Source: a virus (Duplodnaviria > Caudoviricetes). From it: a stretch of 64,000 bases of DNA. Within the stretch, counting starts at the first letter, position 1, and each line of letters opens with the position of its first letter. Below are positions 2,406 through 37,047 of the stretch, in pieces. Under the pieces are notes generated by a model, which was not told where the DNA came from, ran no database searches, and saw only the letters and a program-made list of their open reading frames with translations. The stretch is from the IMG/VR virus record IMGVR_UViG_3300035520_001173, positions 1 to 64,000 of that record; one strand, written 5' to 3'. Position numbers and translations under genes: made by a program.

Positions 2406-2885
2406 ATGGGACGAAAGATTAAGATTTCTGAACAGGAATTAACTCAGCTTATCAATGAGTGTGTAACAAGGGCTATCAATGAAATTTCGATGGATACTCT
2501 TGATAGTGCTATTGATAAAGCAGGTAGCAGAGCGTATAGTGGCAGTCGTACTGGCACGTATAACACTCAAGCTCAACGCAATAAAGCCAATCAGCAATAT
2601 GCCAATCTCAGAAAAGCTCGTGCTGAAAGAATGGGCTATGACCCAACCAACCCAAAGGATGCAAACAATCCCGATAATGCATATAGACAAGCACGTTGGG
2701 AAAAGAATAACGATGAAAGGCGAGATGGCCGCCGTAGATATGAGAACGGTAAATGGTCAAGTGGCCATGAAACTTATTCTGCTGAAAGAATGCGTAAGAA
2801 TATGGAGGCAATGAATAAGTCCTTCGCTCCTAAAAAGAAAACTGGCTTAGTAGATAAACTTAAAGGTCTTGTAGGCAAAAAGTAA
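2406..2885 (+). CDS. Basic protein with N-terminal helical tag; putative internal head protein
   Basis: N-terminus KIKISEQELTQLINECVTRAINE; lies between the protease and scaffold genes. Confidence 0.5.
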   Translation: MGRKIKISEQELTQLINECVTRAINEISMDTLDSAIDKAGSRAYSGSRTGTYNTQAQRNKANQQYANLRKARAERMGYDPTNPKDANNPDNAYRQARWEKNNDERRDGRRRYENGKWSSGHETYSAERMRKNMEAMNKSFAPKKKTGLVDKLKGLVGKK

Positions 2886-2969
2886 TTATTTCTTTGAGGA
2901 ATAGCACTTTTCGTTTTATGAGACTATTTATTATTAAAAATAAGTCAATTTCAAATTGAATTCAATTAA

Positions 2970-4433
2970 ATGAAGAAAGATAATACGGCAGAAAAGACTA
3001 TCCAAGATGCTGAACGTTTAAGTAAGGCATTGAAGGAGAGTACCGAAAAATCTTTAAAAGACCTTATGAATGAAGCCATTTCTAATATCATCAAAGAAAG
3101 TGATGAAGAAGATGATGAGCCGATTGAAGATGAGGTTCCCGAAGATAATTCGGAAGAAGGAAAAGAAGAAGAAGATGTCAATTCCGATGATGTTACTTCT
3201 GATGAAGACAAAGAGGATACTGCAGTAGAGGATACTGAGGATTCTACAGAAGACACCGACCCTCTTGAAGACGGCGAAGGTGATGAAGATGAATGGTCTG
3301 ATTTAGAGCAATACAAGGTTGGTGACAATGATTATGATTTCACTGGCGTGGACGGAGACACTGTTCTCAAGGTGTACAACAAACTTAATGACGATGACAA
3401 AATCTTAGTTAAACAAACTGAAGATGGCAACTACGAAATTAAGGATGATGAGACTGGCGCTGAATATGTGATTGAACTTAATGATGATGCCGATATTGAC
3501 GATTTCCAAGGTGAAGAAGATGATGAGCCCGAAGATGATGCGGACATCGAATTAGAATTAGGCGGTGATGATTCAGAGGATGATTTAGAGCCTGAACTTT
3601 CTGATGAAGATGGTCTTGACGGCGAGGACTTAGACATCGAATTTGCTGATGATGAAGACAGTGACGAAGACGATGAAAATAAAGATGAATTAGACGAAGA
3701 CACAGACCTTATGACTAACGAGTATCAAAAGAAAACAGCAATGACACTCCCAAAGGATGGCAAGTCTAATAGTCCCTTCGATGCAGGCGCTCCTAAAGGC
3801 GGAGAAAATGCAGCTCGTCCCTATGGTAAACGTGGTAACGATAATCCGTTTGACAAATCAGTAAATGAATGTGGAGATGGTGCCTGTGGAACTAATGAAG
3901 ATGTGATTGAAGAGGATGGTTCTGGTCTCAATACCAAACATTCGACTAAAAAGTCAACCAATCGCATTAATAGAAGCGCTCAAAATCAGCGCAACAGTTC
4001 TGAAAATGGCGAATTCCAAGCATTGCGTGAAGGCGCAGTGAAAATCTACAATAAGGCCAAGGAGATTCAAAAGGAAAACAAACAATATAAAGAATGTATT
4101 GCCCAAATTAAAAAGTCTTTGAAAGAGGCCGCAGTTCTTAACGTAAACCTCACTCAAATTGTCAAACTCCTTTCTGAAAATACAACCACTCAGAAAGAAA
4201 AGAAAGACATCGTAGAACGTTTTAATAGGGTAACCACAATCAAAGAATCTAAGACTCTCTACGATTCAATTAAACGTGAATTAAATGAGTCAAGACGTAA
4301 AGAAGTGGTATTGGAACATGGTACAACCGCTTCTCCATTAAATACCTTAAATGAAACTACCATTTATAAAAACAGTAAGACTTCTAACCCTGCATTGGAT
4401 TTGATGTCTCGCATGGATAATCTTTGGAAGTAA
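2970..4433 (+). CDS. Prohead scaffold/core protein
   Basis: 487 aa, extremely acidic middle region, coiled-coil C-terminus with many L/I-x-E sites, directly upstream of the MCP; late motif at 2925. Confidence 0.75.
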   Translation: MKKDNTAEKTIQDAERLSKALKESTEKSLKDLMNEAISNIIKESDEEDDEPIEDEVPEDNSEEGKEEEDVNSDDVTSDEDKEDTAVEDTEDSTEDTDPLEDGEGDEDEWSDLEQYKVGDNDYDFTGVDGDTVLKVYNKLNDDDKILVKQTEDGNYEIKDDETGAEYVIELNDDADIDDFQGEEDDEPEDDADIELELGGDDSEDDLEPELSDEDGLDGEDLDIEFADDEDSDEDDENKDELDEDTDLMTNEYQKKTAMTLPKDGKSNSPFDAGAPKGGENAARPYGKRGNDNPFDKSVNECGDGACGTNEDVIEEDGSGLNTKHSTKKSTNRINRSAQNQRNSSENGEFQALREGAVKIYNKAKEIQKENKQYKECIAQIKKSLKEAAVLNVNLTQIVKLLSENTTTQKEKKDIVERFNRVTTIKESKTLYDSIKRELNESRRKEVVLEHGTTASPLNTLNETTIYKNSKTSNPALDLMSRMDNLWK

Positions 4434-4485
4434 ATCTAATAAAGGTATTTAATAATACGAAATAGTTCTTTTTGATTTATAGAAC

Positions 4486-4492
4486 TATTTAT
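4486..4492 (+). promoter_or_regulatory. Putative late promoter TATTTAT (MCP copy; one of 15 found)
   Basis: The same heptamer occurs about 20-50 nt before structural genes at + 2925, 4486, 10548, 30866, 37113, 38368, 41725, 44541, 57439, 58384 and - 13151, 18774, 30815, 37075, 63392. Confidence 0.7.
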
Positions 4493-4534
4493 TATTAAAA
4501 TAACAAAGAAAAACTAACGATTAGTTAAAATACA

Positions 4535-6379
4535 ATGATTTCTAATTTTTTGAATGGCGCAGGTGTAGGTAGCATTGCTACTAGCCTTCAGTCAGAAGCT
4601 CGTAAGCAAATTCAAGAACGTTGGGAAAATCTCGGTTTTACCAAAGGTCTTAAAGGATATCTCAAAGAGAACATGGCCGTTATCTTCGAGAACGAAGCTA
4701 ATCAGCTCCTTAAAGAAGCAACTGATTCTTCAAACAGCGGCTCTTTCGAAACAGTAGTATTCCCTCTTGTACGTCGTGTATTCTCTCGCCTCTTGGCTAA
4801 TGATATCGTATCTGTACAAGCAATGAACATGCCTATTGGTAAACTGTTCTTCATTAAGCCCGTTACTTCAGAACGTAAATGGGATATTCAGAGTGAAGAG
4901 GGCGTAACCGATGGTGATACTGGTTCGCACTATGGTCTCATGGGCTACGAGCGCACCGTAACTTCTAACGCTGGTGACAGCACTCCTGGTTCAAAAGAAA
5001 ACCGTTTTTATCTTCCCGATGAAGCTGTAAACGACAAAACTGTAGGCGTTACCAAATATATGAAGAAATCTCTCTATGACTTGTTCTATGATGATTTCTT
5101 ATATGACAACTCTAAGGGTAAAATTCATATCAAGGTTGGCACTATAGAAGCTGCTGGTATCTCGGCTAACGGTGAATACACCAAGGGTGCTGTTAAAGTT
5201 TGTGGTATTGATGATTCTGTACGTAATGCAATCGTAGCTGTAGGCGGTTTCTCTGCTTACAATTCTGCCAAACTTACAGGTCCCGACGGCAATGAAATGG
5301 ATACCGAAGCATTCGTAGCTTCTCTTAAAGTTATGGCTGTTAAGGATATCGAAGATGCTGAAGGTAAAGGTTTCACTACTTTTGCTAAGGGTGATTCAAT
5401 TCCTTTCCGCTTTGTAACTCAACGTTATGGTGCAGGTATTGTTGATAAGCCTTCTGTGGTAGGTGCTGATGGCAAGATTTACATTGAGCTCGATTTCGCT
5501 AAACCTACCCGTGAAATGCAGAAAACTGAAGATGGTTTCATTGGCGTTGACCCGACTGCAGTTACTGCCGATAACCTTTCAGACCTTTTCCAAGTTGCTT
5601 GGGCACAATATGACAGCCTTGAACTTGAAACCGAAATCGGTGAAGTAAGCTTCGAACTTTCTAATGTTGATGTAGCTGTTACTGAACGTAAGCTTCGTGC
5701 TACTTGGTCTCCTGAAATGTCTCAAGACGTTGCAGCTTTCCACAACATCGACGCCGAAGCTGAATTGACCGCAATCCTTTCTGAACAAATCGCTGCCGAG
5801 ATTGACCGTGAAATTCTCCGTGACCTCCGTAAGCAAGCTCCTTGGCAGTTGACTTGGGATTACAATGGTTGGAGACGTATGAATGGCTTCTCTACTAACT
5901 ACACCCAAAAGGACTGGAACCAAACTCTTATCACTAAGCTGAATCAGATTTCTGCACAGATCCACAAAGCAACACTGAGGGGTGGCGCTTCATTTATCGT
6001 ATGCTCAACTGAAATCTCAGCTATCTTTAATGATTTGGAATACTTCCACGTTACTGACGCTAATGCAGAAGCCAATACCTACTCAATGGGTATAGAAAAG
6101 ATTGGTTCTCTCCAAGGCCGTTACCAAGTATATGTAGACCCATATTCTCCTGCTGGTAGCATTATAATTGGTCATAAGGGTGATAGCTTACTTGATACAG
6201 GTTACATTTATGCTCCTTATGTTCCTATGCAATTAACTCCGACTATCTACAATAGTCAAAATTTTGCTCCTGTTAAGGGAATAATTTGTCGATATGCTAA
6301 AAAGATGGTAAATAACCGTTATTATGGTGGTGTAAGAGTTCTCGGACTCCAAACTTGGGATATGAGCGAGCTTCGCTAA
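4535..6379 (+). CDS. gp23: Major capsid protein, T4 gp23-like
   Basis: LVRRVFSRLLANDIVSVQAMNMPIGKLFF, RKLRATWSPEMSQDVAAFHNIDAEAELTAILSEQIAAEIDREI, YAPYVPMQ; strongly biased codon usage. Confidence 0.95.
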   Translation: MISNFLNGAGVGSIATSLQSEARKQIQERWENLGFTKGLKGYLKENMAVIFENEANQLLKEATDSSNSGSFETVVFPLVRRVFSRLLANDIVSVQAMNMPIGKLFFIKPVTSERKWDIQSEEGVTDGDTGSHYGLMGYERTVTSNAGDSTPGSKENRFYLPDEAVNDKTVGVTKYMKKSLYDLFYDDFLYDNSKGKIHIKVGTIEAAGISANGEYTKGAVKVCGIDDSVRNAIVAVGGFSAYNSAKLTGPDGNEMDTEAFVASLKVMAVKDIEDAEGKGFTTFAKGDSIPFRFVTQRYGAGIVDKPSVVGADGKIYIELDFAKPTREMQKTEDGFIGVDPTAVTADNLSDLFQVAWAQYDSLELETEIGEVSFELSNVDVAVTERKLRATWSPEMSQDVAAFHNIDAEAELTAILSEQIAAEIDREILRDLRKQAPWQLTWDYNGWRRMNGFSTNYTQKDWNQTLITKLNQISAQIHKATLRGGASFIVCSTEISAIFNDLEYFHVTDANAEANTYSMGIEKIGSLQGRYQVYVDPYSPAGSIIIGHKGDSLLDTGYIYAPYVPMQLTPTIYNSQNFAPVKGIICRYAKKMVNNRYYGGVRVLGLQTWDMSELR

Positions 6380-6400
6380 TATACTGATTTTCAATATATT

Positions 6401-6438
6401 AATCGCCTTTAAGATTCGTCTTAAGGGCGATTTTTGTT
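6401..6438 (+). terminator. Intrinsic terminator after the MCP gene
   Basis: AATCGCCTTTAAGA-TTCG-TCTTAAGGGCGATT followed by a T tract. Confidence 0.85.
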
Positions 6439-6521
6439 TATTTAATTTTGTACTGTTGAAAGGTATACTAAGGTAAGTTTTTTTTAGCCCACCTTATACC
6501 TTAATCATATTATAGATGCAA

Positions 6522-6553
6522 TTTGCATAAATAAGAAATTATTTGTAACTTTG
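6522..6553 (+). promoter_or_regulatory. Bacteroidota-type primary-sigma promoter
   Basis: TTTG (6522) -20 nt- TAACTTTG (6546). Confidence 0.7.
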
Positions 6554-6579
6554 CATTGGTATTAAAATACACACATAAT

Positions 6580-10530: not shown

Positions 10531-10602
10531 CTTTCAGATTAAGAAGATATTTATGAGTACGGGGTTTCATAAAAATAAATAGACCTCGTACTTTTTATTC
10601 CT

Positions 10603-11646
10603 ATGAAAAGAGTATTAATTAACGAAGGTGCTGAAAGTCGTAATATGTCGGCTGCAAAGCATTATTTATATAAATTAGGTTTTGATGAAGCTAAAGCGTT
10701 AAAGTTTATCGGTGCTGTTAAAACCGATATTCCAAATGTAAGGCTTCAGAAATGCAAGTTTATCTTGGGTGTTGTTAGGATGGCCAAGGAAGGGCAACTT
10801 ACTGATGGTCCATCTATTCTTGCTTTGAATAAGACGCTTAAATTAGTTGCCAACGAAACACATGTTAATGAATATAATCAAGACCTAAATGGAATGTCTT
10901 GTGAAGAACTCGTCAACCGTTTCAAAGGGGCTGCTGTACAAGATTTGCAAGATAGAAAGGCCCAAACAGGGAATCAAAAATTTAGCGGCCAAAGTGATTA
11001 CAATATTGTAAGAATTACTTCTTTTGAAGAAGCCGAAAGCTATGGTGACTATGTAGATTGGTGTGTAACCCATGACGATGACATGTATAACAACTACACT
11101 CATGGTGGTATGGGACTTTTTTACTTCTGCCTTAAAAACGGTTTTGAAAATGTAGAAGAAGTAAAAGGTGAAGGGTGCCCATTAGATGAGTATGGACTAT
11201 CAATGATTGCTGTATCTGTCAATGAAGACGGTTCTTGTAATACAATCACTTGCAGATGGAATCATGCTAATGGCGGCAATGACAATATCATGACCGATGT
11301 AGAATTGTCCAAGGTTATCAACAGAGATTTCTACAAAACATTTTTACCCTATAGTCCTGAAGAAATAAGGAAAAAACGTTCAGAAATTGTAGGCCTATTT
11401 AAACAGTGGGTTTCCAACGAAGATTGCTTTTACAACATAGATGATGATTATTATTCAGCTTCTTATGAGTATTGCAATGTTGATAATACTGATGGCGAAT
11501 TAAGAGACGAAAATGATGAACCATATTACGATAGTTACGGAAACATAAAAGACGAAGTAACTAAATTCATTATCATACAATCAGATTTCTGTGATATTAT
11601 AGAAGATATCATTGGTAGTGATAAGTATATGATATATGATATATGA
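10603..11646 (+). CDS. Hypothetical late protein; probably the N-terminal half of a gene split by a 7-bp repeat
   Basis: Late motif TATTTAT at 10548; N-terminus MKRVLINEG; DWCVT-containing domain; ends MIYDI* inside the repeat. Confidence 0.6.
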   Translation: MKRVLINEGAESRNMSAAKHYLYKLGFDEAKALKFIGAVKTDIPNVRLQKCKFILGVVRMAKEGQLTDGPSILALNKTLKLVANETHVNEYNQDLNGMSCEELVNRFKGAAVQDLQDRKAQTGNQKFSGQSDYNIVRITSFEEAESYGDYVDWCVTHDDDMYNNYTHGGMGLFYFCLKNGFENVEEVKGEGCPLDEYGLSMIAVSVNEDGSCNTITCRWNHANGGNDNIMTDVELSKVINRDFYKTFLPYSPEEIRKKRSEIVGLFKQWVSNEDCFYNIDDDYYSASYEYCNVDNTDGELRDENDEPYYDSYGNIKDEVTKFIIIQSDFCDIIEDIIGSDKYMIYDI

Positions 11647-11647
11647 T
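11627..11647 (+). repeat. (ATATGAT)x3 tandem repeat at the junction of two overlapping ORFs
   Basis: Three exact 7-bp copies at 11627-33, 11634-40 and 11641-47; two copies would fuse the ORFs in frame. Confidence 0.9.
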
Positions 11648-12886
11648 GTGCGGACGCAAGAACCTATAATTGATGAGATTTTTGATGACGTACATGCTTG
11701 GAAGAACAATGTTGGATTTGTTGTAAAATTGGGCAAGAAAGAAAACCTACTTAGAGAAGACGGTACCTATGCATGGGATGGAGAATGGTTTGATAAGGTA
11801 ATGAACTATGGCTCTACCTCAATGGTATTTCTTGATAGTAAGTTCGCATTACTTGATGTTAAAAACAAACGAATTATTAACAATACATGGTTTAAGGCCA
11901 TAAAACCATTAGTAAATGGAATTTTTGTTTGTTATGCTGACGATTCAACCTTAATCTTGAACTCGGCAGGGCAAACATTGGTTAACGGAATTGTTGAAGC
12001 CAAAAAAGTCAGTGAAGTAATTATAGTTAAATGGCCTGATAGGAAATCCCAATGTTATAGACTTTCTGATGATGGTAAAGGACTATTGCCCTTATCTTCA
12101 ATGAGATTTAACCAATGTACAGGTTTTAGAAATATTCAAGGTAGAGAGTTTTATGCTGCTAAGTTAGATTGGCATGAATACTATATGGATATTCAAGGAA
12201 GAAAAACTTATGTTAAAAATGGTGAAGGCTATAAAATGATAGAAGACCTTGGAAGTCATGATGCCGATAAATATAAAATCAGAAACCAACAGATAAATAA
12301 TAATCCGACAAAAAGCTTCTCTGCAAGAGACTATATAAAAGAAAATAAAAAGAAAAGTAATTTTCAAATGAAAAAGAATAATATATTAAACGAAGCAAAG
12401 CTGAATAAGCTTATTAAAGAGAGCATTAAGAAAGTTCTTAAAGAGAATCAAGAGTATCCCGAAGAACTTTATCAAATAGGTAGAGAATTGCAGGAAATAA
12501 ACGTAAAATTAAGCCGTTTAAGCGGCCAATATCGCTTTGAGGATAAAGACACTTATGAAGTAATTAGAAGTCTTCAAAATCAATTAAATGGCGTCTGTGG
12601 AGACTTAAACACATATGGTATTTCAAGTTATTTGAATGAGGGATTTGAAAGGACTTATAATCAGGCTAAAGATGATTATTTCAAAAGAGAGCCTCATGGT
12701 ATGTGGGGAATGGAATTAAAAAATCCTGAAGGCGAATGGGAATATGGCGACATTAATTACGACCCTAAGGCACAAACTATGAGTTGTATGGGCGCTACTA
12801 TTCAGGTAGACCCTGATATGACGGTAGTCCAAAATCTTGAAGCTCTGTACGACGAGTTAGTCAATCAAGGCTACGGGCAGGATTAA
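11636..12886 (+). CDS. Hypothetical protein; probable C-terminal half of 10603, with an internal tagged segment from 12368
   Basis: Starts MIYDV inside the repeat; internal MKKNNILNEAKLNKLIKESIKKVLKE. Confidence 0.55.
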   Translation: MIYDVRTQEPIIDEIFDDVHAWKNNVGFVVKLGKKENLLREDGTYAWDGEWFDKVMNYGSTSMVFLDSKFALLDVKNKRIINNTWFKAIKPLVNGIFVCYADDSTLILNSAGQTLVNGIVEAKKVSEVIIVKWPDRKSQCYRLSDDGKGLLPLSSMRFNQCTGFRNIQGREFYAAKLDWHEYYMDIQGRKTYVKNGEGYKMIEDLGSHDADKYKIRNQQINNNPTKSFSARDYIKENKKKSNFQMKKNNILNEAKLNKLIKESIKKVLKENQEYPEELYQIGRELQEINVKLSRLSGQYRFEDKDTYEVIRSLQNQLNGVCGDLNTYGISSYLNEGFERTYNQAKDDYFKREPHGMWGMELKNPEGEWEYGDINYDPKAQTMSCMGATIQVDPDMTVVQNLEALYDELVNQGYGQD

Positions 12887-12917
12887 GACAAAGAATTTTA
12901 GGCAATATTATAAAATT

Positions 12918-12958
12918 AGAGGATAATTAGCTTTTAAGGCCTTATCCTCTTTTTTTTT
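12918..12958. terminator. Terminator between convergent genes
   Basis: AGAGGATAA...TTATCCTCT plus T tract. Confidence 0.7.
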
Positions 12959-12983
12959 ATTTTTATATATTTGTTATTGATGG

Positions 12984-13121: not shown

Positions 13122-13271
13122 TTGTGGAATTTGTTTCTATTTTCTAAACTATAAATATAGGATAGGGCGTTAAATTTAATTATTCTCATTCTTAAATGCG
13201 ATTTTTGCAAAAAAATTGTCAGAATCCTGATATTAAATTTGAATTTTGAACTTTTTTAAACATTTAAAGCG

Positions 13272-13616: not shown

Positions 13617-13667
13617 TTATGTTCTTCTGCTTTTTATTTTATATATTGATTATTATGTACAATAACA

Positions 13668-13850: not shown

Positions 13851-13857
13851 TAGAAAA

Positions 13858-13889: not shown

Positions 13890-13910
13890 CATCAACTAAA
13901 GAACTTAATT

Positions 13911-18182: not shown

Positions 18183-18220
18183 AGAAAAAGTGGAGCGATT
18201 GTTGTTGCCCCACTTTTTCT
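18183..18220. terminator. Bidirectional terminator
   Basis: AGAAAAAGTGG...CCACTTTTTCT between convergent genes. Confidence 0.75.
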
Positions 18221-18749
18221 ATTTTAAATATTCTTTGATCACTTTTCGTGAAATGTTTTCTATCAATTTTTGAAGTTTAATGCTCTCGTCTAATTCTTCT
18301 TTCGGTAGTTCTTCTGCCCTAAGTATGTCAATTATTCTGCTTTGCCAAGTTGCTTTGTGCTTCCTCTGAATATTATTGATTCTTTCTATACGGTCGGCAC
18401 CATCCCCATCCCAATAGAAAGTTTTTGTGTGGTCTTCGTTGTACATGAAACGAACAGAGAAAGAATGGCCACCATCACCAATTTCTGAAATCGCCGATAA
18501 AAGTCTGACGAAATTACTTATAGCCTCTTTATCGCAATCTGTTGAAAGTAAGATATGCTGCCCTCTTTGATTATCTACGGGCATATATTTTGTATTCCTA
18601 AAACGCAGTGGTTTATCGAAAATTATATCTCTACGATAGTAAGAATCATCACTATCTAATGTTATATAAGCCCTGCCTTTGAATTTCGTTGAGACTACGA
18701 AATCAAGTATCTTTTTGGCCTCACTTCCATCATTAAATTCAATTGTCAT
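18219..18749 (-). CDS. Hypothetical late protein with C-terminal helical tag
   Basis: GDGGHSF...WDGDGADRI; ends LDESIKLQKLIENISRKVIKEYLK; late motif at 18774-80 (minus strand). Confidence 0.6.
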   Translation of the reverse strand: MTIEFNDGSEAKKILDFVVSTKFKGRAYITLDSDDSYYRRDIIFDKPLRFRNTKYMPVDNQRGQHILLSTDCDKEAISNFVRLLSAISEIGDGGHSFSVRFMYNEDHTKTFYWDGDGADRIERINNIQRKHKATWQSRIIDILRAEELPKEELDESIKLQKLIENISRKVIKEYLK

Positions 18750-18781
18750 GGAATTTTTTTTCTACTTTTTTCAATAAATAT

Positions 18782-27449: not shown

Positions 27450-27460
27450 TTAAAAAAAAT

Positions 27461-27497
27461 AAATACCGCCACTCAATTAAGAATGACGGTATTTTTT
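27461..27497. terminator. Terminator ending the NAD operon
   Basis: AAATACCG...CGGTATTT plus T tract. Confidence 0.7.
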
Positions 27498-27509
27498 ATT
27501 GTTCTTTTC

Positions 27510-28916
27510 TTAATCCAAGGTAAAAGTCAGTACCCAATCTGATAAATCATCAGGAATATCTCGTTGCCCTTCGCACATATCAACCCACTCCAAATTCGTA
27601 TCTCTGATAATTTCAAGAAGCTCAAGTAAATCTTCTTCTAATGAACCCGAACCATTTTTACCAAGACTTACAACTGTGTAGTATTGGATTTCATCATTAT
27701 GGTTTTTAATAGCGATTACATATTTGAATAACTTATTATTCATTATGTATTTGACATGTTCGACTGGTATTTTTGTCTCATCTTTGAATAATACCGTAAT
27801 GCTATTCTCCTTACCAATCCTCATAAGATTTTGAACCGAAGGATATTTGTCGATTAATTCTGCAAGAGCTTGCTTAGATTCTTCGTCGCCGTCTATCGAT
27901 TCATTTAATTCACTTTTCTCCCAATCTCCGTGGGAAGCATCTTGAGGTATATATCCCATATCTTTTAAATTTTGTTTTGAATATCTTATACCATTTGTCC
28001 TTGGCATTTTCCAATAGGGAATATCTTTGCTTGTTGATGAAACGTAATTCCTTGGGTCAGAATCTATTTTTCTTCCGCTTTGTTTTGAAAGGTTTGTATA
28101 AAATTCGTTGTTTATACTATCTACTGAATCATCATCAAGTATTTCAATAATTCTAATCTTGTCAACTATGTACCATGTTTGGTCTTTCGTGGCATTCGAA
28201 TTGGTTCTATATTCGTAATATTCACTATCGCCTAACTTTTGTAAGCATTGGTCAGCAGGGGTTTCTGACATAGACCTTGCTTTTTCGGTAGCGTTGATAT
28301 CAACACAAACTTCAACTTTGCCCCATACTTCACTATTTCTTGTGAATTGGTAGTTATTGCCCGTGCCTTTCTTTCCATCTTTGACTTTACCATCCCCACG
28401 CTGATTACCCCATGGAGTTGTGGTCATGTGCCACCCAGGTCTATAGGCTAAATTGTCTATTTTATTGCCATCAGTATCATAACCCCTGCCTACTGTATAT
28501 AAACGATTATTTTCCGTATTGAGCCAACATTCGCCTTCACCACTTTTATACCATTTCCCAAGTTGCAAGCCTTGCGGTAAGCCCATATCTCCTTCACTAT
28601 CTGTTTTTACATAAAGAGGAAATACCATGCCTTTTGAGAGATTATTGCCGTTATTATCCAATCTAAGCTTGAATTGTTTATATAGAATAATTGGCTTTAA
28701 TTTAGGTTGAAAATCGGGTAATTCTTGGTGGGGTGTAGTTCCATGCTGATATTGGTAATAATCATATTCCATATGTTTATCTGAACCTTTGCCCACTGAA
28801 CGGCCTACCCATTTATCTTTAGGGCTTGAAATTCGAAAGTTTTGCCTTTCAGTATCACTCTTCGCTCTATATTCGTCGATAGCTTCTGCTAAAATGTTCT
28901 TAAAAAAATTATTCAT
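27510..28916 (-). CDS. Hypothetical protein with YKQF/FPLYV/LAYRPGWH domain (resembles polyvalent-protein domains)
   Basis: Motif string LYKQFK...FPLYV...GKWYK...LAYRPGWH...VWGKVEV; N-terminus NILAEAIDE; internal LNES. Confidence 0.5.
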   Translation of the reverse strand: MNNFFKNILAEAIDEYRAKSDTERQNFRISSPKDKWVGRSVGKGSDKHMEYDYYQYQHGTTPHQELPDFQPKLKPIILYKQFKLRLDNNGNNLSKGMVFPLYVKTDSEGDMGLPQGLQLGKWYKSGEGECWLNTENNRLYTVGRGYDTDGNKIDNLAYRPGWHMTTTPWGNQRGDGKVKDGKKGTGNNYQFTRNSEVWGKVEVCVDINATEKARSMSETPADQCLQKLGDSEYYEYRTNSNATKDQTWYIVDKIRIIEILDDDSVDSINNEFYTNLSKQSGRKIDSDPRNYVSSTSKDIPYWKMPRTNGIRYSKQNLKDMGYIPQDASHGDWEKSELNESIDGDEESKQALAELIDKYPSVQNLMRIGKENSITVLFKDETKIPVEHVKYIMNNKLFKYVIAIKNHNDEIQYYTVVSLGKNGSGSLEEDLLELLEIIRDTNLEWVDMCEGQRDIPDDLSDWVLTFTLD

Positions 28917-28935
28917 ACTAAAATATACCAGTCAA

Positions 28936-30789
28936 TTATTTAAAAAGCCACATATTAGCTTTATACGCAGTGGCATTAACGTTTTGTTTTTTATCCATAT
29001 ACAACATTAATGGGAAGCTCTTTCCTTGTGAATTATCAGTTCTTATTGGGTTGTCAACTTTTACAATACGATTGTTGATATTAATCATAGATTGTAAAAT
29101 AACCTTGTCTTTTTCTTTAACTTTCATCTGTCTGTTAATAGAAAATTCCATTACAAATAATCCCATAGCAAGGCAGGTCAAAGTGTCATCATGGCAACCA
29201 TCTTTGTGGTCTATACGCCCATTCTTAAAAATCCATGTTGACAATTCATTGATAACCCTTGAACTTCTAATTTTGAATTGATTTGTCTTAACTAAGTTTG
29301 CAAAATTAGACAACATTTGAAAACGGACAGAACTACTATGAAAACCTGGCAAGCCGTCTTTTGTAACCTTAATAGGCGATGCCTCATTCTGAGCTGTGTA
29401 GGTTTTTAGCGTTGGGTCATCATAGTACAAATTGTCATATTTCAGGTTGAGTAAAGTGAGAAGTGTAGCGCTACCATAGCCACCGATATCCTCGACAATG
29501 ATATAAGCTTCATTATAAATCATACCGTAATTATAAGCGATTTCGCCAACAGCGTCACCTGTAAGTTTTCCGTTATATTCGGCTACTTGTTCAATAACAG
29601 GCATTCCATTTTCATCTACACCGTCAATATCAATAATTTCAAGTGCCGTGGCATCGTCTGAACCGCCAGTGGAGTTGTCAATAGACATTAGATATCTATG
29701 TCCTTCAATGGGTAGTTTCCATATCCATAATTCATCCAAAACGTTATCTTTGTATTCTGGATTTGGTTCTCTAACATTGAGGGTTCTTTGCATTTCAATA
29801 AATTCAGGGGCAACTACAGTAGAATCAGAACCAAGAAATGATACGTCGAGCTCTTGTGCTATCTTTTGAGAATTGTTGTTAAATTTCTCACACATCCCAA
29901 CATACCAAGGAGAACGAGGTTTATAGCCCTTTGAAAGCATATCATTCCAATGCTCATCGTTCCACTCGATATTACCTTTATCGTCTAAGGTTTGTTCCTT
30001 TACGATATCGTATTCGCCTGTTTCATCATTCTTTTTAGTCCATTCCAAGAATTTGTTATAACGTGGGTCTTGATACCATCGCATCTCAACACAAGTATAA
30101 CCATTTTTATTCTCTAATGCTTGACGATAAGTTTCGTAATACAATTGGTCTTTACCATTAGGAGTAGAAATCATTACAATGTGGCCACCTGTTGAAACGG
30201 TAGCTACGGCTGACGAATAAACGTCTTTGCCATTCTCAATGAATGCAGCCTCATCGAATATGAGCCAAGAAACACCACCAACACCACGAGAAGCATCAGG
30301 GCCTGAAGAACGGGCTACAATTCTACAACCATTAGTCAAAACTAATTCTTTTGTATTACAAATTTTGTATATGGACTTTTTATTCTTATCTGATTTTTCA
30401 TCTTCAGACCAATAATCTGTTCCGAAAAACCATCTTGGAAATTGATTGATAAAGTCACGAATTTTTGTGACCATTTGTTGTGCAAGGTCAAGAGTGTTGC
30501 CAATAACGAGAATAGTAAGAGGGGATTCGGGGTCTGCAAGAACACATTCGCAGGCCATAAATGCACCTGTTGTAGTTGTAATACCACTCTGACGTGGTTT
30601 AAGAGTAATAATGTTACTGCCAATACTCAATGTTTGACAAAGTGCTTGTTGCCTTGGAAATAAATTATATCGGACTTCTCGTTTTTGAGTTGCGTCATAA
30701 GTTTTCAGATAATTTGAAATCATGTAGATTCTTGTTTTATCTGAAAGACATTTAACATATTCTTCTGATATATGATTAATATCTACCAT
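28936..30789 (-). CDS. terL: Terminase large subunit
   Basis: LKPRQSGITT (Walker A), WLIFDEAAF (Walker B), MISTPNG, nuclease motifs MSIDNSTG and HDDTL. Confidence 0.95.
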   Translation of the reverse strand: MVDINHISEEYVKCLSDKTRIYMISNYLKTYDATQKREVRYNLFPRQQALCQTLSIGSNIITLKPRQSGITTTTGAFMACECVLADPESPLTILVIGNTLDLAQQMVTKIRDFINQFPRWFFGTDYWSEDEKSDKNKKSIYKICNTKELVLTNGCRIVARSSGPDASRGVGGVSWLIFDEAAFIENGKDVYSSAVATVSTGGHIVMISTPNGKDQLYYETYRQALENKNGYTCVEMRWYQDPRYNKFLEWTKKNDETGEYDIVKEQTLDDKGNIEWNDEHWNDMLSKGYKPRSPWYVGMCEKFNNNSQKIAQELDVSFLGSDSTVVAPEFIEMQRTLNVREPNPEYKDNVLDELWIWKLPIEGHRYLMSIDNSTGGSDDATALEIIDIDGVDENGMPVIEQVAEYNGKLTGDAVGEIAYNYGMIYNEAYIIVEDIGGYGSATLLTLLNLKYDNLYYDDPTLKTYTAQNEASPIKVTKDGLPGFHSSSVRFQMLSNFANLVKTNQFKIRSSRVINELSTWIFKNGRIDHKDGCHDDTLTCLAMGLFVMEFSINRQMKVKEKDKVILQSMININNRIVKVDNPIRTDNSQGKSFPLMLYMDKKQNVNATAYKANMWLFK

Positions 30790-30900
30790 GTTAATCTATG
30801 AAGTTATCTATACTATAAATAGTCCCTAATTCTCTATTTAGCTTGATTAATTGACGATTAAGAGGTATTTATTAAAGAAGAAAGATTAATCTAAATAAAC

Positions 30901-32925: not shown

Positions 32926-32930
32926 GTTTT

Positions 32931-35267
32931 ATGCAAGATAAATTTTCATTCTTAAAACAAAAAATAAACGAATCTATTTCAGAATTATCAAGTGATTATG
33001 ATAACTTTGATGATTACAAAAAAGGGGTTTCAAATTCTCAATGTTTTGTATATAGTCAAGTAGATTCTGAAAGTATTCCTAATATATGCCGAAATGGTAC
33101 TGATGGAGCTAAGGAATTCGTTAACACAATGATAAGGGGTCGTGGTATATATACAGTTTTGACTCTTAAGGAAGCATTAAGCTATAATAGATGTGATGCG
33201 ATTGTTAAATATGCTGTCAGAAAAGGTGCCTGCAATAATTTTTTAATATTCGATGGCGCTTTAAAAAAAGCTCTCAAAGATATGGGTGCATTAACAATTG
33301 ATGAAACTTTTTCTCAAACTTGCCGTCGTTTATTCGACGACGGAATGTATAACTATTTAGACAAGCATCTTCATGGTGGGTTTAAAGGCTATGATGAAAA
33401 AATAAACAGTTGTAAAGAACTCTGTAAAAGCGGCCATGAACATAGCCCAAGTGACAGTTTACAAGCTTCATTTCTTTACCTGATAACACAAGGCGAAGAC
33501 CGCATTGAGCTTAGAAAGGGAAAATCTTTTAGCTCTGAACGGCGTTTGGACATTTCCAATGTAGATGGATGGGCATTCCATTACGGATATGGTAACACGT
33601 TGGTTTTTAGGACAACCGACTTAATAATGCCTATTAGCTATTGCCTTAACCCACGAAGTTCTAATCCAAAATGGGAATATTGTTTTAAGAACCCCGAAAG
33701 TTTTGACTATGCAAACAATAGAATAGATGCATTTAGACGGGCAAGGCTAAAATATCCTGATACAAACTATACCGAAAAAACAGTTTGTGGCTTTTCGTTA
33801 GTAAAAAACGGCAATAAGTTTAATTTGATGAGTGCTCGTGATGGCTCATATTTTTCGCCTATTGATTTTGATTCTTGTACAGTGTTTGACCCGATTGACA
33901 ATGAGGCTGCATTTACAATAAAGTCAGAAGAGGACAATGTACTTATCAAGTTTATTATTAAATCAGAAAATTATGGCAAGCGTATTCAATTGTATTGCAG
34001 TTTTCCTGATGAAAGTGGTGAGTATTCAAGCTTTGATGAGATATCATATGATACCTTTTTAGAGGTAATGAATAGCGTTGAATCCGAACCAAGTGTAGTT
34101 AACGAGTCTGTTGAAGAAGTATATACTCACAAGGATTTTAATACATTCAAAAAAGGTCTAAATAACCCGAAAAATGTTATTTTATATCGTGCTTCAGAGC
34201 CACCAGTTGCTAAAAGTGAGTATGAAAACGGCCCTAACTATGAATATACTGGTACTGGTGGGGACGATAGTCTTTATTATGGTTTTGGAGTTTATACTGT
34301 TAGGAATCCGAGAAGCATACTTGGTGGAAAATACGGGTATGGAATTTGCAAATATATTCTAAAGGACGGATATAAAGATTTTATCATCTTTGATGATAGG
34401 GTAAGGGCGATACATGACCCAGGAGCTACTGTTTACGATGAGCTTGTTAGGTTGGTGCCTGAGAATATATTAAAAATTATTGATAAAAAACTTAAAACTG
34501 ATACTCCATATGTGCGTAATGGCCCTACACGAAGGCAACTCGCAAAATATGGCGTTGAAGGATATAAGAATATCAGTATATCTCCGATGGGTGACATCTT
34601 TAATACAGCTAGTTTTGCCCGTGCCCTATACCTCACTCTCCAAGGCCGCAATTTGGGTGATAGTCTGGCTAAACATGCATTCCAAGAAATCCTTATGACA
34701 AAAACAAAAATCAGAGGTTTCGTTTATAATGGAGGTGCTGATGGTGAATGCACATACGTCAGAGATTTTAACTCATTGATGCCTATTGCATATTCTATGG
34801 ATGGTGGAAAGCATTGGATAAGTGAGGATGACAATGAAGAAAGATTTAACAAAATCAACCGAAAAGTTCATCCGTGGTATCAATATAGAGGCGAATATGA
34901 AAATATTAAGTTAAGAGATAAGCCTGTTGGCAATTTTTCATTGGTTAGTGGTAAACAAGGCTATAACTACAAAGATATTTGGTTTCATAGACCTTTATTA
35001 CCTATAGACGTTGAAACCGCAACAAATTTTGACCCCCTATCGGATACTGCTACTTTCAATTTCTGTGGTTTTGAATTTGAAATTAGCGTGGATGATGATA
35101 TGAATGCAACTCTTTTCTTCCGTGATGATGATGGTAGTTTTAAAGAATGTTCTTATAATGATTTAATGGAACTTATTGAAACGGCTAAGCAAGAGAATAT
35201 AATTTCTAAAGACGTAAAGATATATCAAAATAATCTTCTTAACCCTAACAATGATAGAAAAAAATAA
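32931..35267 (+). CDS. Tandemly duplicated ADP-ribosyltransferase-like protein
   Basis: Two similar halves of about 390 aa. Half 2: LYRAS...YYGFGVYT...YG..ICKY...FIIFD...GFVY...DGECTYV. Half 1 is degenerate (VYSQV...GRGIYTV). Confidence 0.5.
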   Translation: MQDKFSFLKQKINESISELSSDYDNFDDYKKGVSNSQCFVYSQVDSESIPNICRNGTDGAKEFVNTMIRGRGIYTVLTLKEALSYNRCDAIVKYAVRKGACNNFLIFDGALKKALKDMGALTIDETFSQTCRRLFDDGMYNYLDKHLHGGFKGYDEKINSCKELCKSGHEHSPSDSLQASFLYLITQGEDRIELRKGKSFSSERRLDISNVDGWAFHYGYGNTLVFRTTDLIMPISYCLNPRSSNPKWEYCFKNPESFDYANNRIDAFRRARLKYPDTNYTEKTVCGFSLVKNGNKFNLMSARDGSYFSPIDFDSCTVFDPIDNEAAFTIKSEEDNVLIKFIIKSENYGKRIQLYCSFPDESGEYSSFDEISYDTFLEVMNSVESEPSVVNESVEEVYTHKDFNTFKKGLNNPKNVILYRASEPPVAKSEYENGPNYEYTGTGGDDSLYYGFGVYTVRNPRSILGGKYGYGICKYILKDGYKDFIIFDDRVRAIHDPGATVYDELVRLVPENILKIIDKKLKTDTPYVRNGPTRRQLAKYGVEGYKNISISPMGDIFNTASFARALYLTLQGRNLGDSLAKHAFQEILMTKTKIRGFVYNGGADGECTYVRDFNSLMPIAYSMDGGKHWISEDDNEERFNKINRKVHPWYQYRGEYENIKLRDKPVGNFSLVSGKQGYNYKDIWFHRPLLPIDVETATNFDPLSDTATFNFCGFEFEISVDDDMNATLFFRDDDGSFKECSYNDLMELIETAKQENIISKDVKIYQNNLLNPNNDRKK

Positions 35268-36169
35268 TGAGAAACATTTTATTGACTGAATCTCAGCTTA
35301 TTCATATAATGTGTGAAGGGGTTCATGTAACGAGAAGCAAACAAACTTATGGAGATTTAATTCTTGATTTAATACCTATAGAACAGCAACTTAATAGTGT
35401 TAACTTGTCTTTATTCCTTAACGCTCAATCTGTTAATGAACTGCAAGAGGTTGCTGAATATATAGATACTTTAACAAGCAAAAAGAAACAACAAGCAATT
35501 AATGAATTTTTAACCACTGATTATTTCAAGGATAATGAGGCTGTTGCTTTTGCTGAATCAAGAATACGGAAAATTCCAATTAGAGGTGTGAACAAATATT
35601 CAAACGCCCTTTCTGATTTGGTAAAACCTGATATGGTTTCAAGAGAGAAAGAACGTGCTTCAAGACATGATGCAAATTTAAGCATGGGGGAAAAGATAAT
35701 TAGGAATACATTGGCCACAAAAGACATTAATTTCAATAAAAAGTTTCCCATGCAAATGCCTGATGCATACAACTATTTTGATAAGTGGGAAGGTGGTGAA
35801 TTACCGATTGACGCAACTCAGTATGGAAATATTGAGGAATTAAATACAGCTTTGCAACCTTATTTTGAGAAATCAAAAGGCTATCAAAAATACATGACAA
35901 TCGTTAACCTATGTAAGAAATATAGCAAAGAGGGCACATCAGCGTCTGCTGTCAGATATGTTTATGATGGAGATTCTGTCTATTTCCCAGCTAAAACTAA
36001 AATTGAATTATCAACAACAAGGGCTAATACTGTAGGTAAATTTACAGTTATACCTAATGGGTTAAAAGAGGTACGAAGTGGTATAAGGACTCTTGGATTT
36101 GATTGCGGTGCATTGAATATTTCGGGTGAAGATAAATCTAATATGACTATTTATTTCAAAGTTTCGTAA
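35267..36169 (+). CDS. Hypothetical protein with N-terminal tag
   Basis: MRNILLTESQLIHIMCEG. Confidence 0.55.
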   Translation: MRNILLTESQLIHIMCEGVHVTRSKQTYGDLILDLIPIEQQLNSVNLSLFLNAQSVNELQEVAEYIDTLTSKKKQQAINEFLTTDYFKDNEAVAFAESRIRKIPIRGVNKYSNALSDLVKPDMVSREKERASRHDANLSMGEKIIRNTLATKDINFNKKFPMQMPDAYNYFDKWEGGELPIDATQYGNIEELNTALQPYFEKSKGYQKYMTIVNLCKKYSKEGTSASAVRYVYDGDSVYFPAKTKIELSTTRANTVGKFTVIPNGLKEVRSGIRTLGFDCGALNISGEDKSNMTIYFKVS

Positions 36170-36243
36170 TTTATAAAAAATACTAATAAAAAAAAGGAAG
36201 TCTATTAAGATTTCCTTTTTATTTTATTGAATTGCCTAATTAT

Positions 36244-37047
36244 TTAGTAGCCTGAAGTGTCTACATTTGAATATAAGATGAATTTACCATCGGGATTGAA
36301 GTGGACTGTTTGAAAGAAGCCCTTATCGGGAAAGAAGTTTCTATTTCCTCTTTTATCATTTTCAGCATCAAATACCATTAAGTCTTTTACCATTTCGGGG
36401 ATATAATTCATATAACCATCCTTAATCATAATATGAAGTCCGCCACTTGGTGAAGTAAATTCTCTTTCGATAATATCGGGGCCATAACTATTAATTATAG
36501 CTTTAGTTATACGCCATACTCGTTTATCTTTTGTGTCAATATCAAGCATACAACGTTTTCTATCGGGGAAATTAACTGGGTCATGTTTGGCTTGTCCTGC
36601 TAATATTTCGGCAGCATGTACTGCACGTGGGTCGTTAGGGTCTTTAGAACGCTTTTGATAAGTAGGAATAAAGGCGTTAATTGCTGACTCTGAACGTGGA
36701 TTTGAAGTTATATAGGCTCTTGCATTATTATCATCGCAATATTGTACTATTTTTGGTTTCAAATTCATTAAATCTTGAGCAGTTTTTACCTTAAATGCTG
36801 TGCCTTTAGAATATTCTCCGAATTCACCGCCGCCATGGTAATTACCTGCTTTAGACATTCCTTTATTATCTTTATAACGTTTAATAACTTGGACAAAGAA
36901 GAATTGGTCTGGGTCTGTGCAATTCATTAATTTTGCCCATTCGTCAAAATAATCCACTTTATTCCTAACTTCTTGAAGTAGCTGTTCTTTAAGAACCTCT
37001 CTAATAACAGAGCGGAGTTCGGATTCGTTTATTTTTAATCTTTTCAT
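36244..37047 (-). CDS. AEP (archaeo-eukaryotic primase) superfamily-like protein with N-terminal tag
   Basis: The sequence reads on the minus strand; MLDIDTKD (DxD) and TSPSGGLHI motifs; N-terminus KINESELRSVIREVLKE; late motif at 37075-81. Confidence 0.5.
   Translation of the reverse strand: MKRLKINESELRSVIREVLKEQLLQEVRNKVDYFDEWAKLMNCTDPDQFFFVQVIKRYKDNKGMSKAGNYHGGGEFGEYSKGTAFKVKTAQDLMNLKPKIVQYCDDNNARAYITSNPRSESAINAFIPTYQKRSKDPNDPRAVHAAEILAGQAKHDPVNFPDRKRCMLDIDTKDKRVWRITKAIINSYGPDIIEREFTSPSGGLHIMIKDGYMNYIPEMVKDLMVFDAENDKRGNRNFFPDKGFFQTVHFNPDGKFILYSNVDTSGY

What the first reader, a model, noticed from the sequence alone, without database searches (positions are those of the whole stretch)
2406..37047. 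Shared helical tag on unrelated late proteins: a candidate capsid-cargo loading and processing system
Seen: unrelated ORFs carry the same amphipathic pattern [ILV]-[NTS]-E-x-x-L-x-x-[LI]-I-x-E-x-[VI]-x-x-x-[IL]-x-E. Full matches: 2406 (KISEQELTQLINECVTRAINE), 37047- (KINESELRSVIREVLKE), 12368 internal (ILNEAKLNKLIKESIKKVLKE) and 18749- C-terminal (LDESIKLQKLIENISRKVIKE). Partial matches: 35267 (LLTESQLIHIMCE), 10603 (VLINEG), 32931 (KINESISE) and 28916- (ILAEAIDE). Several have the TATTTAT late motif or lie in operons that do. Established: T4 gp21 cleaves after I/L-x-E, and T4 internal proteins and Alt are loaded through a short capsid-targeting sequence and injected. Inference: the tag sorts diverse enzymes into the prohead, the protease clips it, and the cargo is injected as a pre-made anti-host toolkit. 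The tag appears portable (N-terminal, internal or C-terminal).
Basis: partly seen in the sequence, partly recalled or inferred. Interest (0 to 1): 0.82.

Follow-up and report, generated by a model that had tools for sequence, protein, structure and literature searches.

The report
Shared head-loading tag on phage proteins
An uncultured giant gut/rumen phage with a T4-type head puts the same 22-residue helical tag, ending in a T4-type head-protease cutting motif, on several unrelated late proteins; this is most likely an enlarged version of phage T4's capsid-targeting signal, but neither loading nor cutting has been observed.

Summary
The tag is real. A profile built from it scores 17-34 bits on four ORFs of the window: 2406, 35267, 37047(-) and the internal site at 12380. 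Shuffled proteomes reach at most 8.5 bits. The other claimed copies fail. The C-terminal site in 18749(-) scores about 0 bits. ORF 10603 is a decayed remnant, shown by homology to fully tagged relatives. ORFs 32931 and 28916(-) carry a different leader.

The tag is clade-wide. Related 300-480 kb phage genomes hold 7-18 copies each, and 162 metagenomic proteins matched the profile. It is mostly N-terminal, and conservation stops exactly at a final L-x-E. Synonymous sites are randomised, so selection acts on the peptide.

The phage has a gp21-family protease, a gp23-type capsid protein and a gp20-type portal. Its capsid protein has L-L-K-E|A at the column where T4 gp23 is cut. Tagged genes share a promoter-like motif with capsid, portal and terminase genes (17/35 against 107/910).

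Best reading (0.6): a T4-like capsid-targeting propeptide that the head protease removes. Packaging, cutting and injection remain inference. One unrelated 73-kb phage without this protease carries a perfect tag.

This scan has reached similar readings on other T4-like phages. Verdict: new variant of a known kind, interest 0.55.

The parts
2406..2885 (+). 159-aa strongly basic protein with an N-terminal tag (nt 2418-2483). It has its own late-type promoter motif at 2351 and lies between the protease and scaffold-position genes.
   Evidence: Profile 21-36 bits. The part after the tag has pI 10.1 and 22.6% K+R. Motif position. No homologue in G001 or G002.
35267..36169 (+). 300-aa protein with an N-terminal tag (nt 35276-35317). 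It is the last gene of the 30901-36169 operon.
   Evidence: Profile 25-34 bits. The orthologue in G001 (L025:8693-9589) keeps a tag-like leader.
36244..37047 (-). 267-aa conserved neighbour of the portal. It has an N-terminal tag (nt 36970-37038), a soft linker, then a globular domain with a primase-like (AEP) fold.
   Evidence: Profile 17-28 bits. 209 homologues, nearly all keeping the tag and an L/I-x-E before the domain. AF2 model pLDDT 93 with helix 8-22. Whole-domain matches to RepB', PriS and S-2L PrimPol at Z 6.6-7.3. Promoter motif at 37082.
11636..12886 (+). 416-aa ORF with an internal tag (nt 12380-12445), preceded by an in-frame ATG at 12368. It is a fusion of an unrelated N-terminal part with a 'tag plus small domain' unit.
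   Evidence: Profile 30-34 bits. Residues 272-416 are 49% and 41% identical to the stand-alone N-tagged proteins P0085 and P0026. Weak hit to PF25734, 20 bits against a cut-off of 27.
10603..11646 (+). 347-aa protein with a decayed tag remnant (nt 10612-10626) and a late-type motif at 10547.
   Evidence: 48-49% identical to fully tagged G002 proteins, but lacking about 15 residues of their tag. No profile score.
32931..35267 (+). 778-aa two-unit protein with a second type of leader at its N-terminus (nt 32949-33026), repeated at the junction of its halves (nt 34095-34157). This is not the tag of the finding.
   Evidence: In L004 the two units are separate genes, each with this leader.
27510..28916 (-). 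468-aa protein (phrog_30118) whose N-terminus (nt 28869-28907) resembles the second leader type. It is not the tag.
18219..18749 (-). 176-aa protein. Its C-terminal look-alike (nt 18231-18293) is not supported as a tag. A late-type motif lies at 18781.
   Evidence: Profile 0 bits. Motif position.
3..761 (+). Prohead protease of the T4 gp21 family, cut by the contig start.
   Evidence: PF03420 Peptidase_S77, E 2.3e-12.
2970..4433 (+). 487-aa acidic protein in the gp22 scaffold position. It has many [ILV]-x-E sites, and its N-terminal helix (nt 3051-3098) resembles the second half of the tag.
   Evidence: Position and alignment A5. The resemblance is not significant by profile, 3-9 bits.
4535..6379 (+). 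Major capsid protein of the gp23 family. The predicted maturation site L-L-K-E|A is at residues 58-62 (site nt 4706-4717).
   Evidence: PF07068, E 2e-71. Alignment with T4 gp23 and gp24.
38403..40373 (+). T4-type portal protein (gp20 family).
   Evidence: PF07230, E 2e-66.
28936..30789 (-). Large terminase, preceded by a late-type motif at 30822.

Best explanation
The tag is a capsid-targeting propeptide of the T4 kind, enlarged to about 22 residues. It reads [IV]-[KR]-[LI]-[NT]-E-S-Q-L-[KR]-K-I-V-A-E-S-V-K-K-V-L-K-E.

Proposed mechanism, all of it inferred:
1. Late in infection the tagged proteins are made together with the head proteins.
2. The amphipathic helix docks them to the assembling prohead core, with the scaffold as the most likely partner.
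3. The shell closes around the core.
4. The gp21-family protease cuts after the L/I-x-E motifs at both ends of the tag. This frees the mature proteins inside the head and splits the two-unit fusions.
5. The freed proteins then leave with the DNA at the next infection.

Shown here: the tag itself, its conservation at peptide level, its place at protein ends, the T4-type head genes, the matching motif at the capsid protein's maturation site, and the shared promoter-like motif.

Inferred only: docking, cutting, packaging and injection.
For: (1) The tag is a real shared module. It scores 17-34 bits on four ORFs here against at most 8.5 bits in shuffles. Related genomes hold 7-18 copies: G001, G002, G003, G004, G009 and LR756508. 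A further 162 metagenomic proteins matched the profile. Three negative controls give nothing, or one match at the E 0.01 limit: Flavobacterium phage immuto (one match, E 0.009), Microcystis phage Mel-JY01 and LR756511.

(2) Selection is on the peptide. Positions with the same residue share the codon in 44% of pairs, against 42% expected from codon usage.

(3) Conservation ends abruptly at column 22, which is E in 92% of tags, with L at column 20 in 89%. After that comes a G/S/D/E/N-rich linker. Each tag holds three [ILVM]-x-E motifs in 122 of 144 cases, against 0.43 per 22 residues in the background.

(4) The head machinery is T4-type: S77 protease, Gp23 capsid protein and T4 portal. These were also found in 6 of the 10 tag-bearing records searched with the protease profile; three of the four without a hit are 19-32% fragments and the fourth is G013.

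(5) The capsid proteins of the clade carry [LM]-[LMI]-x-E|A-[TS] at the column of the T4 gp23 cut (L-T-E|A). T4 gp24, gp22, gp68 and gp21 start with leaders of the same kind. T4 gp21 cuts after L/I-x-E, and 10-19-residue N-terminal leaders target the internal proteins to the core (PMC9026906).

(6) In the 36244 family, 115 of 117 members have x-x-E within 6 residues of the conserved domain. P3 is L or I in 110, P1' is A, G or S in 84, and the median leader is 23 residues. In the AF2 model the site lies in a soft linker between helix 8-22 and the globular domain.

(7) Gene position fits. ORF 2406 sits between the protease and scaffold-position genes. ORFs 35267 and 36244 sit beside the portal, and in G001 between the capsid gene and the portal. 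In G001, G005, G006 and G009 the three to five genes upstream of the protease, where T4 has genes 67/68, start with tag-like leaders.

(8) The promoter-like motif is shared with head genes. Tagged genes have it in 17 of 35 cases, untagged genes in 107 of 910 (Fisher p = 2e-7). Tail-like proteins, terminase and portal carry no tag.

(9) The 2406 protein is small and strongly basic (pI 10.1), like the T4 internal proteins.
Against: There are no virion proteomics, no observed cleavage and no cultured relative.

The tag has no significant sequence similarity to the T4 leader; only the pattern is alike.

About half of the tagged genes in G001 and G002 lie far from the head module, and 18 of 35 have no motif within 80 nt. 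T4's own internal-protein genes are also scattered, so this is weak evidence against.

An unrelated 73-kb phage (G013, GC 42%, 92% complete by CheckV) has one perfect tag and no S77 protease.

Three [ILV]-x-E motifs could be a by-product of an amphipathic helix with acidic flanks.

The similarity between the scaffold's N-terminal helix and the tag is not statistically significant.
Confidence: 0.6

Rival explanations
1. The tag is a docking helix for some other common partner and is not cut off. The partner could be on the outside of the virion (a decoration or an enzyme display) or in a late cytoplasmic assembly. On this reading the tag tethers diverse enzymes to one hub but does not load them into the head.
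For: All faces of the helix are conserved, which fits recognition by one partner. Some cargo domains would also make sense on the virion surface, namely glucosaminidase and GDSL esterase. The tag occurs once in a phage without an S77 protease.
Against: Conservation stops exactly at an L-x-E that matches the predicted capsid maturation site. The 36244 family keeps L/I at P3 and a small residue at P1'. Cargo such as NUDIX, inorganic pyrophosphatase and a primase-like enzyme acts on cytoplasmic substrates. Fibre-like proteins of this phage use a different N-terminal anchor.
Confidence: 0.2
2. The similarity is convergence. On this reading these are ordinary amphipathic or coiled-coil N-terminal helices of an AT-rich, K/E/I/N-rich proteome, with no shared function.
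For: Weak tag-like helices are common in these proteomes.
Against: The four real copies score 17-34 bits against at most 8.5 in shuffles. Non-hydrophobic positions (N, S, K, E) are nearly invariant in 144 distinct tags. Comparable AT-rich large phages give nothing, or one match at the E 0.01 limit. The placement is at the extreme N-terminus.
Confidence: 0.05
3. The conserved element works at DNA or RNA level, and the peptide is a by-product. It could be a translation-start enhancer or a recombination cassette that shuffles 5' gene ends.
For: The tag is mostly at gene starts, and 'internal' copies follow an in-frame ATG. Hypervariable loci of T-even phages are thought, from my own recollection and not checked here, to shuffle genes through conserved 5' ends.
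Against: Synonymous sites are as random as codon usage predicts, 44% against 42%. C-terminal copies exist. Other late genes with the same promoter motif have no tag.
Confidence: 0.03
4. The tagged proteins are members of the Pfam family PF25734 ('RelB_like_antitoxin'), that is, antitoxin-like small proteins.
For: PF25734 positions 3-26 align with the internal tag at 12383-12454 (20 bits). Seven of 107 tagged proteins give weak hits, and one metagenomic protein carries the precomputed label.
Against: All hits tested here are below the family's 27-bit cut-off. The match covers only the tag helix. There is no adjacent toxin gene, and the tag sits on proteins of 80 to over 800 residues with unrelated domains.
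Confidence: 0.02

Closest known systems
[quoted passage not shown]
   Same: Both have a head built by gp20/gp21/gp23 homologues. Both use a short N-terminal leader shared by unrelated proteins, and the leader ends in L/I-x-E. The same motif sits at the capsid protein's maturation site. Cargo genes turn over fast. One cargo (2406) is small and basic.
   Different: The tag here is about 22 residues, against 10-19 in T4. It has no significant sequence similarity to the T4 leader. It carries three cutting motifs. It is found on 7-18 proteins per genome rather than a handful. It also occurs internally and at C-termini. Nothing has been measured.
Propeptides and ejection / inner-body proteins of giant phages phiKZ, 201phi2-1 and SPN3US (PMC5694885, PMC7411985, PMC10052503)
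   Same: These are giant phages with many head-internal proteins. Those proteins are processed after Glu by a distant gp21 homologue, and their propeptides hold several redundant sites.
   Different: Those phages use S/A/G-x-E-type motifs. From the papers' summaries and my own recollection, no single shared tag sequence is described for them. Their head genes are far more diverged from T4 than those here.
Encapsulin cargo-loading peptides and microcompartment encapsulation peptides
   Same: All are short portable peptides, at either end of unrelated enzymes and joined by a flexible linker, that address cargo to the inside of a protein shell.
   Different: Those peptides are not removed by a protease. 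The resemblance is functional analogy only and was not tested here.
Pfam PF25734 (RelB_like_antitoxin, 43 positions)
   Same: Its positions 3-26 align with the tag helix.
   Different: Scores are below the cut-off (20 against 27 bits). There is no toxin-antitoxin context. The Pfam name says nothing about head loading.

Membership tests
T4-type capsid-targeting / prohead-protease-processed cargo system | The genome encodes a gp21-family (Peptidase_S77) prohead protease together with a gp23-type capsid protein and a gp20-type portal. | tested here: met
   PF03420 E 2.3e-12, PF07068 E 2e-71 and PF07230 E 2e-66. Also found in 6 of the 10 tag-bearing records searched with the protease profile.
T4-type capsid-targeting / prohead-protease-processed cargo system | One short leader is shared by otherwise unrelated proteins, mostly at the N-terminus. 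| tested here: met
   Four ORFs here score 17-34 bits. There are 144 distinct tags, and 88 of 148 tag positions are N-terminal. The proteins behind the tag are unrelated.
T4-type capsid-targeting / prohead-protease-processed cargo system | The leader ends in the protease's cutting motif (L/I-x-E), and the same motif marks the capsid protein's maturation site. | tested here: met
   Column 20 is L in 89% and column 22 is E in 92% of tags. The capsid protein has L-L-K-E|A at the column of the T4 gp23 cut. In the 36244 family, 110 of 115 members have L or I at P3. This is a sequence motif only.
T4-type capsid-targeting / prohead-protease-processed cargo system | Cargo is expressed with the head genes (late). 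| tested here: inconclusive
   A promoter-like motif is shared with the capsid, scaffold-position, terminase and portal genes (17/35 against 107/910, p = 2e-7). Timing itself was not measured. Contigs from RNA libraries cover only scraps.
T4-type capsid-targeting / prohead-protease-processed cargo system | Cargo is physically present in proheads and virions, and the leader is removed by the protease. | not testable with these tools
   There is no cultured member and no proteome.
T4-type capsid-targeting / prohead-protease-processed cargo system | The leader is homologous in sequence to the T4 CTS. | tested here: not met
   No similarity beyond the hydrophobic-x-E pattern, judged by eye against the T4 gp22, gp24, gp67 and gp68 N-termini read from L086. 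This lowers 'member of the T4 CTS family' but not 'works like it'.
Pfam PF25734 RelB_like_antitoxin | Score at or above the curated cut-off (27 bits). | tested here: not met
   20.1 bits at 12383-12454. Seven of 107 tagged proteins give hits at E <= 0.01 (best 1.2e-5; bit scores not returned).
Archaeo-eukaryotic primase (AEP / PrimPol) fold, for the cargo protein 36244-37047 | AEP catalytic-core fold with acidic D-x-D and G-x-H motifs. | tested here: inconclusive
   Whole-domain matches to RepB' (Z 7.3, 137 aligned), PriS (Z 6.6) and S-2L PrimPol (Z 6.6). These Z values are middling. D169, D171, G202, G203, L204, H205, H249 and D253 are invariant in 60 homologues.

The most novel reading that the evidence does not exclude
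A whole clade of 300-480 kb gut and rumen phages, probably of Bacteroidales, uses one sequence-readable 22-residue address label. With it each phage would load 7-18 fast-changing proteins into the capsid, cut them free and inject them with the DNA. The proteins include nucleotide-handling enzymes and a conserved primase-like enzyme encoded beside the portal. If so, the injected protein set of uncultured giant phages could be read directly from sequence, and the tag could be used to load foreign proteins.
Probability: 0.4. Interest if true: 0.75.

Novelty: new variant of a known kind. Interest (0 to 1): 0.55.

Why it matters
T4's capsid-targeting leader is known from one phage group and a handful of proteins. 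Here the same logic appears to have been scaled up in giant phages of animal guts that nobody has cultured.

A tag that can be recognised by a profile would give a direct list of candidate injected proteins for these phages. Such proteins are likely host-takeover or counter-defence factors. It would also provide a portable handle for loading foreign proteins into large capsids.

The tag also explains the odd two-unit proteins, which would be polyproteins cut at tag junctions. I found no paper describing this tag: motif strings gave no hit, and the T4 literature only suggests that such a mechanism may be general.

Tried and rejected
- Complex prediction of the scaffold-position protein (A5) with the tag (A2) returned 'no answer' (score 0.00, partner poorly folded). 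It counts neither for nor against binding.
Both were rerun with A2 and A3.
- tblastn of a tagged 111-aa protein against GenBank phages gave no match at E <= 1, and blastn of 36244-40373 also gave none.
- PHROG and Pfam scans of the tagged ORFs and of the presumed tail genes gave almost no annotation.
- Sequence searches of the PDB with three cargo proteins gave nothing. Foldseek against the PDB with the 36244 model gave no match at E <= 0.001.
- The listing of cluster members gave no names or accessions.
- Homologues of ORF 2406 were sought in IMG/VR and in G001/G002, and none was found.
- The idea that the scaffold's N-terminal helix is a tag copy was rejected as unproven. The pattern looks alike, but the profile scores only 3-9 bits.
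- RNA-library contigs (X1, X2) cover only short scraps of 32931, 35267, 37141, the portal and terminase. They cannot show timing or exclude DNA carry-over.
- Literature searches for the tag strings gave no hit. The Jug-phage paper does not mention such a motif.

Full report
WHAT THE WINDOW IS
The window is the first 64 kb of an 84,060-bp IMG/VR viral contig, which CheckV rates 24% complete. Its relatives are phage genomes of 300-393 kb from rumen and gut samples. One 484-kb GenBank 'uncultured phage', LR756508, also belongs with them. Hits in species-level genome bins are long contigs filed under rumen Bacteroidales, which suggests the host group.

The head genes are of the T4 type:
- a Peptidase_S77 (gp21) protease at 3-761;
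- a Gp23 capsid protein at 4535-6379;
- a T4-type portal at 38403-40373;
- a large terminase at 28936-30789 on the minus strand.

An acidic 487-aa protein at 2970-4433 sits where T4 has the scaffold gene 22.

Yes, for four of the eight listed sites.
Three of the four lie at residues 4-6 of their proteins.
- I built a profile from 14 copies (A1) and iterated it to 144 distinct copies.
- It scores 21 bits on 2406, 25 on 35267, 17 on 36244(-) and 34 on the internal copy at 12380. The best score in 40 shuffled proteomes was 8.5 bits.
- The C-terminal stretch of 18749(-) scores 0 bits and is out of register.
- ORFs 32931 and 28916(-) do not match. They share a second leader type with each other and with paralogues in L004. 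That leader is repeated inside 32931 at the joint of its two homologous halves.
- ORF 10603 is homologous to two fully tagged proteins of G002 but has lost the middle of the tag.

HOW WIDE IS IT?
- The profile finds 7-18 copies in each related genome read in full or searched: G001, G002, G003, G004, G009 and LR756508.
- It finds none in Microcystis phage Mel-JY01 or the 595-kb LR756511, and one match at the E 0.01 limit in Flavobacterium phage immuto.
- A search of 5.8 billion proteins with A2 gave 162 proteins. The tag is N-terminal in 88 cases, internal in 53 and C-terminal in 7.
- In the genomes examined here, internal copies nearly always follow an in-frame Met by 0-7 residues. Many of the proteins are two 'tag plus domain' units in a row.
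- In the window, the part of ORF 11636 behind its internal tag is 41-49% identical to stand-alone N-tagged proteins. That ORF is therefore a fusion.
- The 10 tag-bearing records searched with the protease profile gave an S77 hit in 6; of the 4 without one, 3 are 19-32% fragments and 1 is G013.
- The exception is G013, an unrelated 73-kb phage (GC 42%, rated 92% complete). It has one perfect tag and no S77 protease.

ANATOMY OF THE TAG
- The consensus is [IV]-[KR]-[LI]-[NT]-E-S-Q-L-[KR]-K-I-V-A-E-S-V-K-K-V-L-K-E.
- Polar positions are as conserved as hydrophobic ones, which fits recognition by a specific partner.
- Conservation ends sharply at the last Glu, and a G/S/D/E/N-rich linker follows.
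- Three [ILVM]-x-E motifs occur in 122 of 144 tags, one at each end and one in the middle. The background rate is 0.43 per 22 residues.
- Codons at identical residues agree no more often than codon usage predicts (44% against 42%). Selection therefore acts on the peptide, not on DNA or RNA.
- In the AF2 model of the 36244 protein (pLDDT 93) the tag is a free helix (residues 8-22). A softer linker (residues 21-30) joins it to the globular domain.

LINK TO THE HEAD PROTEASE
T4 gp21 cuts after L/I-x-E, and N-terminal leaders of 10-19 residues target the internal proteins to the prohead core (PMC9026906).
- Aligned with T4 gp23, the capsid proteins of this clade carry [LM]-[LMI]-x-E|A-[TS] at the column of the T4 cut. 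In the window this is L-L-K-E|A at residues 58-62. That is the same four-residue class that ends the tag.
- In the 36244 family (209 homologues), 115 of 117 members have x-x-E within six residues of the conserved domain. L or I is at P3 in 110, and A, G or S follows in 84. The median leader is 23 residues.
- The proteases of the clade keep an L-[IV]-E near their own N-termini, as T4 gp21 does.

GENE CONTEXT AND REGULATION
- ORF 2406 lies between the protease and scaffold-position genes, and its product behind the tag is small and very basic (pI 10.1).
- ORFs 35267 and 36244 flank the portal block. In G001 the whole 30901-37047 block lies directly between the capsid gene and the portal.
- In G001, G005, G006 and G009, the three to five genes just upstream of the protease start with tag-like leaders. 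T4 has the prohead-core genes 67 and 68 at that place.
- A five-residue start of the tag is 3-5 times enriched in the first ten residues of proteins.
- A promoter-like motif, [CGA]TATTTAT, lies 22-57 nt upstream of the scaffold-position, capsid, terminase, portal and 37141 genes. It also precedes 2406, 36244(-) and 10603. It is not seen before the small-ORF block at 13-23 kb or the NAD operon.
- Across three genomes the motif precedes 17 of 35 tagged genes and 107 of 910 others (Fisher p = 2e-7).
- Terminase, portal and the fibre-like proteins have the motif but no tag. The tag is therefore not a general feature of late genes.

WHAT THE CARGO IS
Most tagged proteins have no known family. Single cases carry inorganic pyrophosphatase, NUDIX, glucosaminidase, NADAR, GDSL or DUF3008 domains. 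The conserved 36244 protein has a primase-like (AEP) fold by middling structural matches, and it has invariant acidic and G-G-L-H motifs. Cargo genes turn over fast: 2406 and 11636 have no homologue in G001 or G002.

MOST LIKELY MECHANISM
The most likely mechanism is a T4-like capsid-targeting propeptide. Docking to the prohead core, cutting at the flanking L/I-x-E sites, release inside the head and exit with the DNA are all inferred. Cutting motifs at both ends of the helix would allow its removal whether it sits at the N-terminus, at the C-terminus or between two units. I put this reading at 0.6.

The main rival (0.2) is an uncleaved docking helix for another hub. Convergence, a nucleic-acid-level element and an antitoxin reading (PF25734, below cut-off) are disfavoured by the tests above.

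COMPARISON AND NOVELTY
It works like the T4 capsid-targeting sequence, but it is not a sequence relative of it. It is longer, more conserved and far more widely used within a genome, and it also joins modules. I found no paper describing it.

Earlier follow-ups in this scan reached similar readings for other leader tags on other uncultured T4-like phages. A first-reader note on another genome lists a NUDIX protein with what seems to be this tag. Those are unchecked AI notes, not independent evidence. Verdict: a new variant of a known kind, interest 0.55.

Noticed in passing
window 36244-37047 (-): The tagged protein beside the portal is a conserved core gene of the clade (209 homologues). Its predicted fold best matches archaeo-eukaryotic primases over the whole domain, and it has invariant D-x-D and G-G-L-H motifs. 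A possibly head-packaged primase-like enzyme would be unusual.
   Followed up: partly
window 2351, 2924, 4485, 10547, 30865, 32879, 37112, 38367, 57438, 58383 (+); 37082, 30822, 18781, 63399 (-): A promoter-like motif, [CGA]TATTTAT, lies 22-57 nt upstream of head and presumed tail genes. It is probably the late promoter of this clade. It is over-represented on the coding strand in G002 (52 against 15 expected).
   Followed up: partly
window 3-761; G007:99483-101153; LR756508.1:156507-158102: The prohead protease gene is interrupted in relatives.
   Followed up: no
window 793-2360 and 6556-10530: HNH / homing-endonuclease genes are inserted inside the head module, between the protease and 2406 and again after the capsid gene. 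Similar copies lie at 79581-83518 of the same contig.
   Followed up: no
window 10603-12886; L050:2640-8639: ORFs 10603 and 11636 correspond to the two ends of a single 1999-aa protein of G002.
   Followed up: partly
window 41280, 41958, 43834, 44786 (+): Four ORFs of 78-585 aa share a different conserved N-terminus of about 25 residues. It is probably a common anchor of fibre-like proteins.
   Followed up: no
L076:2998-3366 (G013:58737-59105): An unrelated 73-kb phage (GC 42%, no S77 protease, with a 2234-aa protein) encodes a 122-aa protein with a near-consensus tag. This is either a horizontal transfer or a hint that the tag has a use outside T4-type heads.
   Followed up: partly
window 3051-3098 and scaffold orthologues in A5: The N-terminal helix of the scaffold-position protein follows the pattern of the tag's second half (L-K-x-hydrophobic-hydrophobic-x-E-[SA]-[VI]-...-[IL]-[KR]-E) and is followed by an acidic tract. 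The similarity is not significant by profile score.
   Followed up: partly
window 4535-6379: Relative to T4 gp23, the capsid protein carries an insertion of roughly 200-250 residues. The Gp23 profile matches in two pieces.
   Followed up: no
window 30199-41270: Short contigs identical to the window occur in two animal-gut metatranscriptome libraries from two studies. They cover bits of terminase, 30901, 32931, 35267, 37141 and the portal.
   Followed up: partly
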